Source of the DNA: a virus
Virus genome (UHGV): UHGV-1695118
Reading direction: 5' to 3' (one strand)
DNA: 18,953 nt
Position numbers and translations under genes: made by a program. Positions 7,166 through 15,390 of this stretch are shown here, one piece after another (the stretch's first letter is position 1; each line of letters begins with the position of its first letter). The notes under the pieces were generated by a model. The model was not told the DNA's origin. It saw only the letters and a program-made list of their open reading frames with translations, and ran no database searches.

Positions 7166-7399
7166 ATGGCTTTATTTAACCTGTCAGAGCCGCAATTTAA
7201 CGCCGTAAAGACTGCCGCCCGCGCCGCGCTTTCGGCCTGCAAAGCGGAAGTAGAAAAGAACGGATACAGCGATAAAGCTACACGGCTGATATTAGAGAAG
7301 CATTATCGCAAGGTCGCCCCACTAATCAGTATTGAGCGCTTTGTGTGGTTGGTGGGGTATTTAAACAACCGTTGGGGAACGGAACAGGATTATTTCTAA
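7166..7399 (+). CDS. Hypothetical protein (77 aa)
   Basis: ATG 7166, one nt after the upstream stop, within ORF-track frame 7109..7399. Confidence 0.5.
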   Translation: MALFNLSEPQFNAVKTAARAALSACKAEVEKNGYSDKATRLILEKHYRKVAPLISIERFVWLVGYLNNRWGTEQDYF

Positions 7400-7408
7400 G
7401 GGGGCGTA

Positions 7409-7948
7409 ATGAAAAATGATTACGGCGGCAGCCATACGCCGAAAGAAATAAAAGACTTATGGCAAACGCCAAAACCTGTTTTTAGAGGAATGGATCGTGA
7501 ATTCGAATTCGTCGCGGATGTGGCGGCAAACAAGGCAAACGCATTAATCCCGCGATATATAACCGAAGAAATGGACACGCTCCATTATCCGTGGGGAGCG
7601 GTGGCGATGCCTGGCGAGTATGTCTGGATGAATCCGCCATATTCTAATCCGGGACCATTCGTTGATAAGGCGGCGCTTGAACATCAACGAAATCACATTG
7701 GCTGTGTAATGCTATTGCCCGCTGACATTTCTGTTAGCTGGTTTATGAACGGCGTGGAGACGGCAAACGAATGCCGATTAATCACGCGCGGGCGTCTGGC
7801 GTTTATCAATGCCGCTACTGGTAAGCCAGCAAGCGGAAACAATAAGGGTAGCTTGTTTTTGATCTGGCATCCACGGTGCAGACATAAATGTATTTTCACG
7901 CAGATAACACGTAAAGAGCTATATGCAAGAGGTGCAGAAAATGAGTAA
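7409..7948 (+). CDS. dam: Phage-type DNA N6-adenine methyltransferase (Dam-like)
   Basis: 179 aa. Catalytic motif NPPY in WMNPPYSNPGPF, with a downstream LLPADISVSWF segment typical of the small phage Dam family. AAGGGGG upstream of the ATG. Confidence 0.8.
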   Translation: MKNDYGGSHTPKEIKDLWQTPKPVFRGMDREFEFVADVAANKANALIPRYITEEMDTLHYPWGAVAMPGEYVWMNPPYSNPGPFVDKAALEHQRNHIGCVMLLPADISVSWFMNGVETANECRLITRGRLAFINAATGKPASGNNKGSLFLIWHPRCRHKCIFTQITRKELYARGAENE

Positions 7949-8453
7949 AGCGGCTGAATTGCTAAGACTTGCGGCTGAAACTATTGAGGCAAGAGGGGAA
8001 CAAAACGGATACGATCGAAAAGAAGAAAAATCAGCGCCAAAAATAGCGGCTATTTTCAACGCTAAGAAGGGGACAAATTTAACCCCACTTGATGTATGGG
8101 ATCTAATGATTTGCCTCAAGGAAGCGCGTTTAGGGGCTATTCTCGCTAATGGAACTGATCCGCTCGACACTCTTATAGACCTTATTGCTTATAACGCGCT
8201 TAAGGCCGAACAGATATTAGCGGAACGGGAGGAAGAACAAAAGAAAAAACAGGGCGTTTTTGATCTCCCTATCGGTGGATTGAAGAAAACTTTTGCTGAT
8301 CTTGCTGGACCAGAGCCATCTATTGTACCTGGGACAATCCCACCTGTGATGTTTTACGGTGGTGAGATTACTAATCGGCTTGATGTGAAGTTTGACAACG
8401 AATCGCTATTACGCGCGGCGGGGTATCATAAAAATGGAAAGGGTGACAATTGA
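7941..8453 (+). CDS. Hypothetical protein (170 aa) inside the putative modification module
   Basis: ATG 7941 with AAGAGG 8 nt upstream, within ORF-track frame 7923..8453. Overlaps the dam stop by 8 nt and the next gene by 20 nt. Confidence 0.6.
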   Translation: MSKAAELLRLAAETIEARGEQNGYDRKEEKSAPKIAAIFNAKKGTNLTPLDVWDLMICLKEARLGAILANGTDPLDTLIDLIAYNALKAEQILAEREEEQKKKQGVFDLPIGGLKKTFADLAGPEPSIVPGTIPPVMFYGGEITNRLDVKFDNESLLRAAGYHKNGKGDN

Positions 8454-8937
8454 CAGGTTATTAGCCTGCGTTTATGTCGCCGTTTTTGTGATCATCAATC
8501 TTATTGTTAATCATTGCGGCCCGTGGGTAATTCCGATCACCACGGTAGCCGCCGTGTGTGTCAATATGATGATCCGTGACCTCCTGTTATATGACGGCGG
8601 CCTGAAATGGTCGGCTACAACATGCGCCGCCGCTGGCGCAATCACGGTGCTGATAAATTACGACGCCGGAATGGTGGCGATCGCGTCATTCGTTGCGGTT
8701 GTTTCCGGTGCACTTATTTCTGGCGGCGTTTACCGGGTTTTGCCTGGTGGCTTTGATTCTAAACGTTGGCCTGCAAATATAGCGTCCGCCATTGGTGATG
8801 CGTTAATTTTTCCTACGCTATCGTTTATGGCGTTTATGCCGGAAATATCAGCTATGCAATTCATCTCAAAAATGGCAGCGGTAACGGTGATCACCATCAT
8901 TATGCGCCGCTATTTCACGTTTGAGGGTAGAAAATGA
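8434..8937 (+). CDS. Multi-pass membrane protein, possibly VUT/YhhQ-family (queuosine-precursor transporter-like)
   Basis: 167 aa from ATG 8434 within ORF-track frame 8392..8937. About 4-5 hydrophobic helices. Segment KRWPANIASAIGDALIFPTLSF resembles the remembered YhhQ segment RRWWLAPTASTLFGNVSDTLAFF. The family call is tentative. Confidence 0.35.
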   Translation: MERVTIDRLLACVYVAVFVIINLIVNHCGPWVIPITTVAAVCVNMMIRDLLLYDGGLKWSATTCAAAGAITVLINYDAGMVAIASFVAVVSGALISGGVYRVLPGGFDSKRWPANIASAIGDALIFPTLSFMAFMPEISAMQFISKMAAVTVITIIMRRYFTFEGRK

Positions 8938-9692
8938 GCAGGGCTAAACATTGGTTAAATAATTGGCTTAGAAGTTGGGTGGTGTGGTCGCTGTACGACG
9001 GCAGCGGGTACGCCGTTAAAGATTGGGCGGAAGCTGGATATAAGTGCTATTGCTTCAACTATGACGGCGCAAATCACGGAGATTATGAAGGCGTTAAAAT
9101 CATTCATCCAAATATTGAATACGTTAACGTCTGGATTGATAGCCATTTCCTGGTAATGTTCTCCCCTGAATTGTCTGTTTATCCAGAGCCTGACATTATC
9201 CTGGGCTTTCCTCCATGCGACGATCTCGCTGTGTCAGGCGCTCGCTGGTTCGTTGATAAATACAGGAAAGATCCTTGTTTTCAGAATAGGGCGGCAAGAA
9301 ACGCAATGTTGGTTGAATCTCTGGCTAACATGTATAACGTGCCGTGGATGGTGGAGAATCCTGTTGGTGTGCTGTCAACGCTATGGCGTAAACCGGATTT
9401 TATCTTCAATCCTTGCGCTTACGGTGGCTACCTGCCGGAAGATGACAAGCATCCTGCTTTCCCTGATGTTTACCCACCGCGCGACGCGTACACGAAGAAA
9501 ACTTGCATATGGTGCGGCAACGGATTCAGGCAGCCGCTTTTTAGACCTGTAGATCTTAACTCTGGTGATAACCCTGGGTGGGCGAAAACCGGAGGCAGGA
9601 CGAAACGAACAAAGATGATCCGCTCACTAACACCGCGTGGCTTTGCCCGTGCTGTATTCCTGGCTAACCATGACCGCGTTTTATCGGACTGA
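8934..9692 (+). CDS. Compact C5-cytosine methyltransferase-like protein
   Basis: 252 aa. ATG overlaps the upstream stop (ATGA). C5-MTase motifs occur in canonical order and spacing: motif I LYDGSG (about aa 20), motif IV GFPPCDDLAVSG with the Pro-Cys catalytic dyad (about aa 92), motif VI MVENPVG (about aa 130). Also carries CIWCGNGF. Short for this family. Confidence 0.5.
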   Translation: MSRAKHWLNNWLRSWVVWSLYDGSGYAVKDWAEAGYKCYCFNYDGANHGDYEGVKIIHPNIEYVNVWIDSHFLVMFSPELSVYPEPDIILGFPPCDDLAVSGARWFVDKYRKDPCFQNRAARNAMLVESLANMYNVPWMVENPVGVLSTLWRKPDFIFNPCAYGGYLPEDDKHPAFPDVYPPRDAYTKKTCIWCGNGFRQPLFRPVDLNSGDNPGWAKTGGRTKRTKMIRSLTPRGFARAVFLANHDRVLSD

Positions 9693-9713
9693 AGTTTACA
9701 AAATGGCGTCATT

Positions 9714-9733
9714 GCGTGATATGGATCACATAA
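9714..9733. promoter_or_regulatory. Palindromic element GCGTGAT-ATGG-ATCACATAA (copy 2)
   Basis: Shares GCGTGAT and ATCACATAA with the element at 6134-6153. Lies in the intergenic region upstream of the nin genes. A weak candidate promoter lies just downstream (-35 TTGTTC 9748-9753, -10 TATACT 9770-9775). Confidence 0.5.
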
Positions 9734-9851
9734 TGGCGCTTTTCGCCTTGTTCTGGTGTATCCATTTTGTATACTTCAAGCAAACAAAATGCTCTTTAAA
9801 AATCCGGCAGCGCTGAAATGCGTAGAAATCACCTGAAAAGGAGAGAGCATT

Positions 9852-14271: not shown

Positions 14272-14485
14272 GGCAACAGGAAAGCAGATTGCGATCCTGG
14301 TTAACGAGGCGCAGTACATGTTTGTCCTTCAGCCGTGGTGTGTTGTAGATCTTAACGACAACTGTCGCCGCCACGCTGCGCGAAGTGCTGTTGGTATGAA
14401 AGGCTGGCAACCGCGCGACATGGAAAAATATTGTGAATGGAAATTGGTGGCAAAATACACGGTCGATTATAAAGGGGTTTTCTGA
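14234..14485 (+). CDS. Hypothetical protein (83 aa)
   Basis: ORF-track ORF overlapping the previous gene by 38 nt; GAGG 9 nt upstream. Confidence 0.5.
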   Translation: MKIRVSYFRAKDKATGKQIAILVNEAQYMFVLQPWCVVDLNDNCRRHAARSAVGMKGWQPRDMEKYCEWKLVAKYTVDYKGVF

Positions 14486-14709
14486 TGTTTGTAAAATGTA
14501 TAAAGTCTCGTTTCCCTAATCTTTTTGTGGTTGATGAGATTTACGACATAGAAACGCTAATAAGCAGAACTAACGATATTCAGTACATTTATGATGAAGA
14601 TGGCGATCCGTGGTTTTTTTATAACGATCTCAATGGTAGCGGATTCGTTGATGGCGTTGGCGGTAATGGTGTGCCAGTTGCGCTATTTATAAATGCAAAT
14701 AAGGAATGA
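14485..14709 (+). CDS. Tandem paralog family member A (74 aa)
   Basis: Sequence MFVKCIKSRFPNLFVVDEIYDIETLISRTNDIQYIYDEDGDPWFFY aligns with the three following ORFs. ATG overlaps the upstream stop. Confidence 0.6.
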   Translation: MFVKCIKSRFPNLFVVDEIYDIETLISRTNDIQYIYDEDGDPWFFYNDLNGSGFVDGVGGNGVPVALFINANKE

Positions 14710-14714
14710 ATATC

Positions 14715-14921
14715 ATGTATGTTAGATGCACTGAATCAAAATCATCATGCTTTGAGGTTGGCGGAATATATACCGTAGCTCACCTGACTGGTGATGAACT
14801 TAACACCCAATACATTAAAGACGACCACGGAGACGCGTGGCGCTATTGGGATTGTTACGCGCGTGGACACGTTGCCAGCCAGTTCAGTACGGAACCGATC
14901 GCGCGTTTTGTTAAGTGGTGA
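14715..14921 (+). CDS. Tandem paralog family member B (68 aa)
   Basis: Sequence MYVRCTESKSSCFEVGGIYTVAHLTGDELNTQYIKDDHGDAWRYW. ATG 14715 with AAGGA 9 nt upstream, within ORF-track frame 14706..14921. Confidence 0.6.
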   Translation: MYVRCTESKSSCFEVGGIYTVAHLTGDELNTQYIKDDHGDAWRYWDCYARGHVASQFSTEPIARFVKW

Positions 14922-14930
14922 GGTAGTGTT

Positions 14931-15170
14931 ATGAGACAGAATCAGAGATACCAGTGCACATACTCACGATGCAGCGCGTTTTTTAAGAATGGCAAGATCT
15001 ACGAAGTCGGAGCGGCATTGGTTGACGCAAAGGATCAGGAATATATTCACGCCATTACTGACGACCAGGGCCAGTTATGGCGATTTTATAAGATGGGATG
15101 TGGAACTGCGCTTGTTTATGCGCGGGCTTGTGGTGGTGCTTTTGCTGCGTTTTCGTATGTAGGTGCATAA
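14931..15170 (+). CDS. Tandem paralog family member C (79 aa)
   Basis: Segment YQCTYSRCSAFFKNGKIYEVGAALVDAKDQEYIHAITDDQGQLWRFY. GAGGT upstream. Confidence 0.6.
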   Translation: MRQNQRYQCTYSRCSAFFKNGKIYEVGAALVDAKDQEYIHAITDDQGQLWRFYKMGCGTALVYARACGGAFAAFSYVGA

Positions 15171-15171
15171 A

Positions 15172-15390
15172 ATGATTTTAACGTGTAACGAATCGAGATT
15201 AGGTTGTTTTGAGGAAGGAGCACAGTACACGGCTGAAAAACCGATGGGATTGTCTCCTAAATTTCCGTTTATCGTCGTGACTGACACTTACGGTCACTTA
15301 TGGTATGCAGGGCCGCTAGGCGGTATTGGTCGTTATGTTGTCCGTAGTTTGGATGGGGCGATGAAGGTTACTTTTACGGAAGAAACGTAA
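15172..15390 (+). CDS. Tandem paralog family member D (72 aa)
   Basis: Sequence MILTCNESRLGCFEEGAQYTAEKPMGLSPKFPFIVVTDTYGHLWYAG. ATG 15172 within ORF-track frame 15163..15390 (which uses a GTG start). Confidence 0.55.
   Translation: MILTCNESRLGCFEEGAQYTAEKPMGLSPKFPFIVVTDTYGHLWYAGPLGGIGRYVVRSLDGAMKVTFTEET

What the first reader, a model, noticed from the sequence alone, without database searches (positions are those of the whole stretch)
7409..9692. Four-gene putative DNA-modification module with a transporter-like membrane protein
A Dam-type methyltransferase (NPPY motif), an unknown 170-aa protein, a multi-pass membrane protein with a YhhQ-like segment, and a compact C5-methyltransferase-like protein are chained by overlapping start/stop codons. 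A precursor-transporter-like protein coupled to two modification-type enzymes is unusual for a lambdoid phage. It could be a dual methylation anti-restriction cassette, or part of a pathway that installs a non-canonical base from an imported precursor. The second idea is speculation.
Basis: partly seen in the sequence, partly recalled or inferred. Interest (0 to 1): 0.8.

Follow-up and report, generated by a model that had tools for sequence, protein, structure and literature searches.

The report
Phage methylase block with orphan transporter
This temperate E. coli phage carries two ordinary DNA methylase genes chained to a transporter related to those that import 7-deazaguanine bases, but it lacks the enzyme that would insert such a base into DNA, so this is probably not a new DNA-modification pathway.

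Summary
Four + strand genes at 7409-9692 are chained by 8-, 20- and 4-nt overlaps. The window belongs to the mEp021/mEpimmI group of temperate coliphages, and the gene order recurs in 43 of 46 related viral contigs.

The genes are:
- a phage Dam (PF05869, NPPY);
- a DUF6378 helical protein with a hypervariable tail;
- a divergent YhhQ/Vut_1-family transporter;
- a compact C5-cytosine methyltransferase with a DNMT3-like fold and the PPC and ENP motifs.

In 14 of 14 sampled lineages outside the window's own subclade, this transporter sits next to a DpdA DNA transglycosylase gene. The mEp021 group has no detectable DpdA and no FolE, QueD, QueE or QueC.

The methylase and the transporter are separable. 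Three contigs replace the methylase with a homing endonuclease but keep the transporter. The methylase stands alone in 42 other phages. Dam, DUF6378 and the compact Dcm occur together without the transporter in a Dhillonvirus.

The transporter is the most constrained gene of the block (dN/dS 0.02-0.04). It falls in a robust subclade that lacks an adjacent DpdA.

Verdict: a mosaic methylation block plus an orphan transporter. The imported-base DNA pathway is not supported, but it is not excluded.

The parts
7409..7948 (+). Phage Dam-type DNA N6-adenine methyltransferase (179 aa)
   Evidence: Pfam PF05869, 175.5 bits against a cutoff of 28.1. NCBIfam TIGR01712 equivalog, 140.5 bits against 97. 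phrog_111. PADLOC orphan MTase. NPPY at residues 75-78. dN/dS 0.07 against mEp021 and MagusPhagus.
7941..8453 (+). DUF6378 protein (170 aa): a conserved helical domain of about 100 aa followed by a hypervariable, probably disordered tail
   Evidence: PF19905, 31.9 bits against a cutoff of 27.1. The alignment shows residues 1-100 conserved and 100-165 highly variable. The AF2 model is poor (pLDDT 51): four helices, tail below 50. dN/dS 0.22-0.27. The reading frame is broken in 9 of 46 related loci. The domain occurs as a free-standing small protein in 243 phage records.
8434..8937 (+). Divergent short member of the YhhQ/QPTR (Pfam Vut_1, COG1738) transporter family (167 aa, multi-pass membrane protein), without its usual DpdA partner
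   Evidence: On its own it scores only 12.6 bits on PF02592 (E 0.18), but the match covers profile positions 6-149 of 152. A profile search finds 260 relatives, and 116 of 120 of them hit PF02592 individually; one carries a QueF fusion. hhalign of the family against E. coli K-12 YhhQ gives probability 94%, E 1.4e-7 over 142 columns. The mEp021 record annotates 6 TM helices. dN/dS 0.02-0.04. 96-100% amino-acid identity across 46 of 47 IMG/VR loci; the 47th is a truncated deletion copy at 91%.
8934..9692 (+). Compact C5-cytosine DNA methyltransferase-like protein (252 aa), presumed orphan Dcm-type enzyme
   Evidence: phrog_757 'DNA methyltransferase', E 1e-86. More than 7,500 homologues, a few with PF00145. 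AF2 model pLDDT 89.5, pTM 0.88. Foldseek PDB top 50 are all DNMT3A/3B/3C catalytic domains, E about 1e-7, probability 1.0. The profile search of PDB sequences also puts DNMT3B first, aligning motif I to motif IV (E 0.18). G23, S24, P94, C95, E141, N142 and P143 are invariant in 50 homologues.

Best explanation
This is a conserved but mosaic accessory block in the antitermination-dependent early operon of mEp021-type temperate coliphages. Two genes are orphan DNA methyltransferases: a Dam-type m6A enzyme and a compact Dcm-type m5C enzyme. They most likely methylate replicating phage DNA and blunt host restriction. With the small DUF6378 protein they form a trio that also occurs, without any transporter, in virulent Dhillonvirus phages. 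A fourth gene lies between DUF6378 and the methylase: a YhhQ/QPTR-family inner-membrane transporter. In other phages this subfamily is the companion of DpdA, the enzyme that swaps guanine in DNA for 7-deazaguanines. Here DpdA and the preQ0 synthesis genes are absent. The transporter is therefore an orphan. It is clearly functional, being the most constrained gene in the block, and it acts independently of the neighbouring methylase. The most likely role is import of a preQ0/preQ1-like base for an acceptor enzyme that the phage does not encode: host Tgt acting on tRNA, or a host Dpd system where one is present.

Shown here: the gene identities, the conservation, the separability of the genes, and the absence of detectable DpdA and Que genes. 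Inferred: methylation activity and target sites, the transported substrate, and the downstream user of that substrate.
For: - **Gene identities:**
- **Expression context:** in the mEp021 record the block lies between annotated terminators t3 and t4 of the early operon, and the paper places nutR2 just downstream of the methylase. No sigma-70-like promoter was found on the + strand inside the block.
- **The transporter's normal partner is DpdA.** A DpdA-family gene is adjacent, often overlapping, in PEAT2, Opt-719, LHE71, RCIP0319, Phc, Tbat1_6, ECO111 5-P and AB3P2. It lies in the same 7-deazaguanine cluster in CAjan. It is also adjacent in five metagenomic lineages. That is 14 of 14 lineages outside the window's subclade.
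- **DpdA and Que genes are absent here.** DpdA HMMs built from 4 and from 9 sequences give nothing better than E = 3.7 against six-frame ORFs of the window, mEp021, the M1/5 prophage and 50 kb of MagusPhagus. CAjan FolE, QueD, QueC and QueE find nothing with E below 0.05. Of the larger unassigned proteins, three resolve to a replication initiator, a DnaB-like helicase and an integrase; the rest remain of unknown function, and none matches a transglycosylase family.
- **The genes are separable.** L115 and L125, read directly, have the methylase replaced by a 175-aa ORF whose HNH/AP2 homing-endonuclease assignment rests on my reading of its sequence; L138 likewise lacks the methylase. All three keep the transporter. 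One locus has a Dam::transporter deletion but keeps the methylase. In 42 loci from other phages, where the methylase is at most 61% identical, it has no transporter, DpdA, Dam or DUF6378 within 6 kb. The Dhillonvirus Oekolampad has the compact Dcm, Dam and DUF6378 within 3.5 kb and no transporter.
- **Selection:** dN/dS is 0.02-0.04 for the transporter, 0.07 for Dam, 0.12-0.20 for the methylase and 0.22-0.27 for DUF6378.
Against: - Tight translational coupling of all four genes and near-universal co-retention in the group would also be expected of a functional unit.
- The transporter is expressed with DNA-metabolism genes, not with anything tRNA-related. E. coli also makes preQ0/preQ1 itself and has its own YhhQ, so the benefit of extra import for tRNA is unclear.
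- The absence of DpdA rests on sequence HMMs only. A very divergent or non-homologous transglycosylase would be missed.
- The window's transporter subclade differs from the rest of the family at about ten otherwise conserved positions, so its substrate may not be a 7-deazaguanine at all.
- No methylation activity or target site has been tested for either enzyme.
Confidence: 0.55

Rival explanations
1. The transporter has taken on a new role. The DpdA-less subclade (the window group, P0009, P0133, P0138) carries a different substrate, or has another membrane role such as exclusion of competing phages, and no longer has anything to do with 7-deazaguanines.
For: The four lineages without an adjacent DpdA form an exclusive clade with 100/100 NJ bootstrap support in three taxon subsamples. 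The clade shares substitutions at positions conserved in at least 80% of the rest of the family: A21, A37, F38, H52, F89, G132, G149, G150 and W153. Its neighbours differ between lineages, and no Q-related gene is present. Specificity within the family is known to vary: E. coli YhhQ takes preQ0/preQ1, and the Chlamydia homologue takes queuine (PMC11130926).
Against: The core signature of the family is kept: N22, G29, R48, D49, S85, N115, D122, F126, F131 and K146 are kept by all members, and Q142 by all but P0133. No member of the Pfam family is known to transport anything but Q precursors. Only 4-10.5 kb on each side was seen for the P0133 and P0138 lineages, so a distant DpdA is not excluded for them.
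Confidence: 0.22
2. The block is a real hypermodification pathway. The imported base is inserted into phage DNA by an enzyme unrelated to DpdA: the DUF6378 protein, the C5-MTase-like protein, or another unassigned phage or host protein.
For: In the related VUT-DpdA pairs the transporter gene is followed by an overlapping gene of about 250 aa, which is DpdA. Here the same slot holds the 252-aa MTase-like gene with an ATGA overlap. The transporter is under very strong constraint and is co-transcribed with DNA-modifying genes. The compact MTase family lacks a recognisable motif VIII QxRxR and carries an unusual invariant D/N-H-G-x-Y motif.
Against: The MTase-like gene can be replaced by a homing endonuclease while the transporter is kept. 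The same MTase family is found alone in 42 other phage loci and in Dhillonvirus without any transporter. The DUF6378 reading frame is broken in 9 of 46 loci, and its domain is common in phages without the transporter. The MTase model matches C5-methyltransferases and keeps the catalytic Cys and Glu. No base-exchange activity is known for that fold (general knowledge).
Confidence: 0.1
3. The transporter gene is a decaying remnant of a former VUT-DpdA module that has lost DpdA, and it has no current function.
For: Every sampled lineage outside the window's subclade has DpdA adjacent. The nin-type region is mosaic, with gene replacement visible in it.
Against: dN/dS is 0.02-0.04 at dS 0.12-0.36, and 0.135 against the 52%-identical homologue. 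The ORF is intact and 96-100% identical in 46 of 47 IMG/VR loci, while its neighbours vary or are frameshifted.
Confidence: 0.05

Closest known systems
Phage YhhQ/VUT + DpdA modules of 7-deazaguanine DNA modification (CAjan/Seuratvirus, PEAT2, T1-like Rogunavirinae and Tunavirus; Hutinet 2019 PMC6884629, Kot 2020 PMC7544227)
   Same: The 8434-8937 product belongs to the same short (about 160 aa) phage branch of the Vut_1/QPTR family. It is 32-36% identical to the PEAT2, Opt-719 and LHE71 proteins. It sits in an early operon, translationally coupled to its neighbours.
   Different: No DpdA and no FolE, QueD, QueE or QueC is present in this phage group. The protein falls in a separate, well-supported subclade with changed conserved residues. 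Hutinet 2019 already noted that some phages carry YhhQ homologues with no correlation to any modification group.
E. coli YhhQ (QPTR), the preQ0/preQ1 importer
   Same: Homologous over nearly the whole domain: hhalign probability 94%, E 1.4e-7, window residues 7-152 against YhhQ 13-192.
   Different: Very low identity (about 20%). The phage protein is 167 aa against 221 aa. By itself it fails the Pfam gathering score (12.6 against 27.2 bits). Transport has not been tested.
Dam / DUF6378 / compact Dcm-like trio of Dhillonvirus (e.g. phage Oekolampad, Bas18), and the orphan methyltransferases of Drexlerviridae
   Same: The same three protein families lie within 3.5 kb: methylase HMM E 2e-113, DUF6378 5e-28, Dam 2e-24. 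They are assumed to counter restriction (BASEL paper, PMC8594841).
   Different: The order and spacing differ, and no transporter is present. The BASEL study found no simple link between these methyltransferase genes and restriction resistance.
DNMT3A/3B catalytic domain (C5-cytosine methyltransferases with a small target-recognition region)
   Same: Best structural match to the 8934-9692 model (E about 1e-7, TM 0.4-0.5). Motifs I, IV (PC) and VI (EN) align.
   Different: Sequence identity is only 13-20%. There is no Pfam PF00145 hit. No clear QxRxR motif VIII is present (KKT instead). The protein is much smaller than bacterial Dcm.

Membership tests
Phage Dam N6-adenine methyltransferase (PF05869 / TIGR01712) | Profile match above the curated cutoffs | tested here: met
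   PF05869 175.5 bits against 28.1. TIGR01712 140.5 bits against 97.05.
Phage Dam N6-adenine methyltransferase (PF05869 / TIGR01712) | Catalytic (D/N)PP(Y/F) motif | tested here: met
   NPPY at residues 75-78.
Phage Dam N6-adenine methyltransferase (PF05869 / TIGR01712) | m6A formation at a defined site (GATC for characterised members) | not testable with these tools
   Needs SMRT or nanopore sequencing, or DpnI/DpnII digestion of phage DNA.
YhhQ / QPTR transporter family (Pfam Vut_1 PF02592, COG1738) | Profile match above Pfam's gathering score | tested here: not met
   12.6 bits against 27.2, E 0.18, although the match is collinear over profile positions 6-149 of 152.
YhhQ / QPTR transporter family (Pfam Vut_1 PF02592, COG1738) | Homology to family members shown by transitive or profile-profile search | tested here: met
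   116 of 120 relatives found at E <= 1.6e-6 hit PF02592 individually. hhalign against E. coli YhhQ gives probability 94%, E 1.4e-7.
YhhQ / QPTR transporter family (Pfam Vut_1 PF02592, COG1738) | Multi-pass (six TM) inner-membrane topology | tested here: inconclusive
   The mEp021 record notes 6 TM helices by TMHMM and Phobius. My crude hydropathy scan shows hydrophobic stretches across residues 3-157 but does not resolve the number.
YhhQ / QPTR transporter family (Pfam Vut_1 PF02592, COG1738) | Transport of preQ0, preQ1 or queuine | not testable with these tools
   Needs complementation of a queD yhhQ mutant with precursor feeding.
Phage 7-deazaguanine DNA modification system | DpdA (TGT-like DNA transglycosylase) encoded by the phage | tested here: not met
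   DpdA HMMs give no hit better than E = 3.7 in the window, mEp021, the M1/5 prophage or 50 kb of MagusPhagus. The same HMMs score 1e-46 to 1e-138 on true DpdA genes in other loci. Among the larger unassigned proteins, PHROGs gives other functions or none, and no transglycosylase family.
Phage 7-deazaguanine DNA modification system | [quoted passage not shown] | tested here: not met
   phmmer with the four CAjan proteins gives nothing below E = 0.05.
Phage 7-deazaguanine DNA modification system | 7-deazaguanine nucleosides in virion DNA | not testable with these tools
   Needs LC-MS/MS of digested phage DNA.
C5-cytosine DNA methyltransferase (PF00145 superfamily) | Pfam or PDB sequence-profile match | tested here: not met
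   No PF00145 hit even at E <= 10. The PDB profile search is weak (E 0.18), though all 12 hits are DNMT3B. A few homologues carry a precomputed PF00145 hit.
C5-cytosine DNA methyltransferase (PF00145 superfamily) | Class I SAM-MTase fold most similar to C5-MTases | tested here: met
   The pLDDT 89.5 model gives a Foldseek top 50 made up entirely of DNMT3A/3B/3C, E 1.4e-7 to 6e-5, probability 1.0.
C5-cytosine DNA methyltransferase (PF00145 superfamily) | Motif I (FxGxG), motif IV (PC catalytic Cys), motif VI (ENV Glu) | tested here: met
   YDGSG 21-25, PPC 93-95 and ENP 141-143. G23, S24, P94, C95, E141, N142 and P143 are invariant in 50 homologues.
C5-cytosine DNA methyltransferase (PF00145 superfamily) | Motif VIII (QxRxR) | tested here: inconclusive
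   No QxRxR is seen. The conserved strand at the expected place reads Y-x-K-K-T-C (186-191), with K188 and T190 invariant. No residue-level structural superposition was done.
C5-cytosine DNA methyltransferase (PF00145 superfamily) | m5C formation at a defined site | not testable with these tools
   Needs bisulfite or EM-seq of DNA from a dcm-minus host expressing the gene.

The most novel reading that the evidence does not exclude
The DpdA-less subclade of phage YhhQ-like transporters, which is strongly conserved in gut-prevalent mEp021-type prophages and always embedded among DNA-modification genes, serves a DNA or nucleotide modification route that does not use a TGT-family transglycosylase. 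This could be a new enzyme for inserting an imported base, or a new imported substrate.
Probability: 0.1. Interest if true: 0.8.

Novelty: new member of a known kind. Interest (0 to 1): 0.35.

Why it matters
The finding gives a family assignment to a gene annotated only as "putative membrane protein" or "hypothetical" in a group of temperate coliphages reported to be common in the human gut. In this sample of 14 lineages (nine isolate phages and five metagenomic contigs) the short phage YhhQ-like transporters always sit next to, or in the same cluster as, DpdA. That adjacency could serve as an annotation aid: several of the adjacent DpdA genes are currently labelled "hypothetical". The sample also defines a small, well-supported exception clade in which the transporter is kept under strong constraint without DpdA. 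If that clade feeds a host enzyme, it is a modest case of a phage tuning queuosine-precursor supply. If it feeds an unknown phage enzyme, it would point to a second way of putting imported bases into DNA. For the original claim, the practical message is a caution: overlapping start and stop codons in a phage early operon do not by themselves make a pathway.

Tried and rejected
- **The search for related loci with the distant transporter alignments A2 and A3** failed because no stretch was conserved enough. I used single-protein scans and isolate genomes instead.
- **Structure of the DUF6378 protein.** The model has pLDDT 51, so I ran no fold search on it. The profile search of PDB sequences gave only chance-level hits.
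- **Relation of DUF6378 to the unknown genes next to the CAjan transporter (gp39, gp40).** hhalign probability was below 1%. Rejected.
- **Do the genes downstream of the transporter in the T1-like phages belong to the window's methylase family?** BLASTP found no similarity. They are DpdA.
- **Direct hhalign of the small alignments A1 and A3 against E. coli YhhQ** was weak (E 0.1 and 0.007). Only the 120-sequence profile gave a convincing match.
- **PADLOC** has nothing for three of the four proteins.
- **A split DpdA in the P0133 lineage** (two ORFs of 136-140 and 144 aa after the transporter). They do not match the DpdA HMMs. They are paralogues of unknown phrog_2510.
- **Superinfection-exclusion or holin-type membrane protein.** Rejected as a family assignment because of the Vut_1 homology.
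Full report
**What is there.** The window is the early-right region of a temperate coliphage of the mEp021 / mEpimmI type. The 7300-9800 segment matches mEp021, mEp010, mEp013, mEp044, mEp515, mEp554 and MagusPhagus at 86-89% identity, and 35 E. coli chromosomes at up to 96%. The literature describes this group as Nus-dependent and non-lambdoid (PMC11893012), although the genes downstream are NinG, RusA and a Q-type antiterminator.

They overlap by 8, 20 and 4 nt. In the mEp021 record the block lies between two annotated terminators, with the 'ipe' gene just upstream. The paper places a second nut site just after the methylase gene. I found no sigma-70-like promoter on the + strand inside the block.

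**Gene 1 (7409-7948)** is a phage Dam. It scores 175 bits on PF05869 and 140 bits on TIGR01712, and has NPPY at residues 75-78.

**Gene 2 (7941-8453)** carries a DUF6378 domain in its first ~100 residues. Its C-terminal ~70 residues are hypervariable between otherwise close phages. The AF2 model is poor (pLDDT 51): four helices and a disordered tail. Its dN/dS is the highest of the block at 0.22-0.27. The frame is broken in 9 of 46 related loci. The domain is a common free-standing small protein in 243 phage records, mostly Dhillonvirus, and is often mislabelled 'phosphofructokinase'. Its function remains unknown.

**Gene 3 (8434-8937)** is the key to the finding.
- Alone it misses Pfam Vut_1 (E 0.18), but the alignment runs over almost the whole model.
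- A profile of its close relatives, searched against 1.84 billion representative proteins, found 260 relatives.
- Of the 120 I aligned, 116 hit PF02592 individually, and one carries an N-terminal QueF-like domain.
- The 120-sequence profile aligns to E. coli K-12 YhhQ, the characterised preQ0/preQ1 importer, with 94% probability and E 1.4e-7 over 142 columns.

**What the transporter normally does in phages.** tblastn against 50,697 phage records found it in only 21. The seven complete genomes are mEp021-type. The eighth record, JQ072023.1, is a 1,450-bp mEp021 fragment from the first search. In each of the other phages that I examined, a DpdA-family gene lies next to the transporter or in the same cluster.
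- PEAT2 (annotated queuine tRNA-ribosyltransferase), Opt-719, LHE71, RCIP0319, Phc, Tbat1_6 and ECO111 5-P have it immediately downstream.
- AB3P2 has it immediately upstream.
- CAjan has it in the same 7-deazaguanine cluster.
- Five metagenomic representatives (P0136, P0137, P0140, P0141, P0143) show the same adjacency.

CAjan DpdA is experimentally required for dPreQ0 in DNA, and the CAjan yhhQ is dispensable there (PMC7544227).

**What is missing here.** HMMs built from 4 and then 9 DpdA sequences score 1e-46 to 1e-138 on the genes above. Against all six-frame ORFs of the window, mEp021, the M1/5 prophage and 50 kb of the 54-kb MagusPhagus genome they give nothing better than E = 3.7. CAjan FolE, QueD, QueC and QueE find nothing either. 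The larger unassigned proteins of the phage resolve to a replication initiator, a DnaB-like helicase, an integrase and proteins of unknown function. The phage therefore encodes a probable 7-deazaguanine-base importer, but neither the synthesis enzymes nor the known insertion enzyme.

**Gene 4 (8934-9692)** has no Pfam hit, but it belongs to a very large phage family (more than 7,500 homologues; phrog_757). The AF2 model is confident (pLDDT 89.5). Its top 50 Foldseek matches in the PDB are all DNMT3A/3B/3C catalytic domains, at E about 1e-7. Motif I (DGSG), the catalytic PC (Cys95) and ENP (Glu141) are invariant in 50 homologues. A canonical motif VIII is not recognisable. It is best read as a compact orphan Dcm-type methyltransferase. 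Its target site is unknown.

**Is it one pathway?** The order Dam-DUF6378-transporter-methylase is kept in 37 of the 38 IMG/VR loci with a methylase at least 79% identical (the 38th is the Dam::transporter deletion), and in 43 of 46 loci found with the transporter. It is also kept in a phage only ~50-66% identical. Even so, the parts are separable.
- In three loci the methylase is absent while the transporter is retained. In the two I read (L115, L125) it is replaced, at the same ATGA junction, by a 175-aa ORF whose sequence reads as an HNH/AP2 homing endonuclease (my reading; no domain search).
- One locus has a deletion that fuses Dam to the transporter's C-terminus but keeps the methylase.
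- In 42 loci from other phage groups the methylase stands alone, with no transporter, DpdA, Dam or DUF6378 within 6 kb.
- The Dhillonvirus Oekolampad has the compact Dcm, Dam and DUF6378 within 3.5 kb and no transporter.

The simplest reading is a methylation neighbourhood, common in E. coli siphoviruses, into which a transporter gene has been inserted.

**Is the transporter alive?** Yes.
- Its dN/dS is 0.023-0.041 against mEp021 and MagusPhagus at dS 0.12-0.36, and 0.135 against the 52%-identical homologue. This is the lowest of the four genes in both close comparisons.
- It is 96-100% identical in protein across 46 of the 47 viral contigs, while its neighbours vary.
- In an NJ tree of 124 family members, the four lineages without an adjacent DpdA (the window group, P0009, P0133, P0138) form an exclusive clade. 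Bootstrap support is 100/100 in three taxon subsamples.
- The clade shares substitutions at about ten positions conserved elsewhere, and the core signature is kept apart from one change (Q142 to M in P0133).

This supports a DpdA-independent role, but it does not say what that role is.

**Mechanism I commit to (confidence about 0.55).** Dam and the compact Dcm methylate phage DNA during lytic replication and give partial protection from restriction. That role is commonly assumed for these families, although the BASEL study found no simple correlation. The transporter independently imports a preQ0/preQ1-like base for an acceptor enzyme that the phage does not encode. The rivals are a changed substrate or other membrane role (0.22), a cryptic non-DpdA hypermodification route (0.10), and a dead remnant (0.05, contradicted by the selection data).

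**Novelty.** All four families are known. Phage YhhQ homologues, including ones that do not track any modification group, were already noted by Hutinet et al. 2019. Three points go beyond that:
- the family assignment for the mEp021-group 'putative membrane protein';
- the strength of the transporter-DpdA adjacency rule in the short phage branch;
- the delimitation of a conserved DpdA-less subclade.

This is a new member of a known kind and is of modest interest.

Noticed in passing
window 7166-7399 (+): Homologue (about 90% nt identity) of the mEp021 'ipe' gene (inducer of pleiotropic effects). It lies directly upstream of Dam, in the same inter-terminator segment.
   Followed up: partly
window 8240-8453 (C-terminal third of the DUF6378 protein): This tail is hypervariable between phages that are otherwise 90-100% identical in the neighbouring genes. 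There are at least three alternative sequence versions and frequent frameshifts. It looks like a diversifying or recombining segment.
   Followed up: partly
L115 5501-6028, L125 5501-6028 (IMG/VR contigs), also L138: A 175-aa ORF, which by my reading of its sequence is an HNH/AP2-type homing endonuclease, takes the place of the C5-methyltransferase. It uses the same ATGA overlap with the transporter gene.
   Followed up: yes
L043 / L146 (IMGVR_UViG_3300045988_049781) and protein P0010: A deletion fuses the N-terminus of Dam to the C-terminal half of the transporter and removes DUF6378. P0010, a 115-aa Dam/transporter chimera of the same kind, is recorded on 7 contigs.
   Followed up: partly
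proteins P0151, P0158, P0159, P0162 and about 20 others (about 300 aa); P0220: Many bacterial relatives of the transporter carry a C-terminal ~140-aa beta-rich extension after a signal-like hydrophobic segment, ending in an aromatic-basic motif. Among the 120 relatives scanned, two match DUF5020. This may be an outer-membrane-channel-like fusion. P0220 has an N-terminal QueF-like domain.
   Followed up: no
L010 5549-6292, L011 5492-6319, L016 4474-5301, L017 4464-5285, L018 4507-5247: The genes next to the transporter in several T1-like and other coliphages are annotated 'hypothetical protein'. They are DpdA-family: 38-43% identical to PEAT2 DpdA, HMM E 1e-81 to 1e-145. These phages may therefore carry unreported 7-deazaguanine DNA modification.
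   Followed up: partly
L004 8516-9363 (P0133 lineage): In the closest relative outside the mEp021 group (P0133), the transporter gene is followed by two tandem paralogues (136-140 and 144 aa, phrog_2510, unknown function) and then an N6/N4 methyltransferase.
   Followed up: partly
window 14485-15390 (+): Four consecutive ORFs of 71-79 aa between Q and the lysis genes are mutually similar (27-37% identity, E 1e-5 to 1e-8). They form a small tandem paralogue family of unknown function within a long run of tiny genes.
   Followed up: partly
L011 2187-2920 (-), phage LHE71: This T1-like phage has both a transporter-DpdA pair and a compact Dcm-family gene. The Dcm gene is split into two overlapping ORFs, possibly by a frameshift or a sequencing error.
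   Followed up: no
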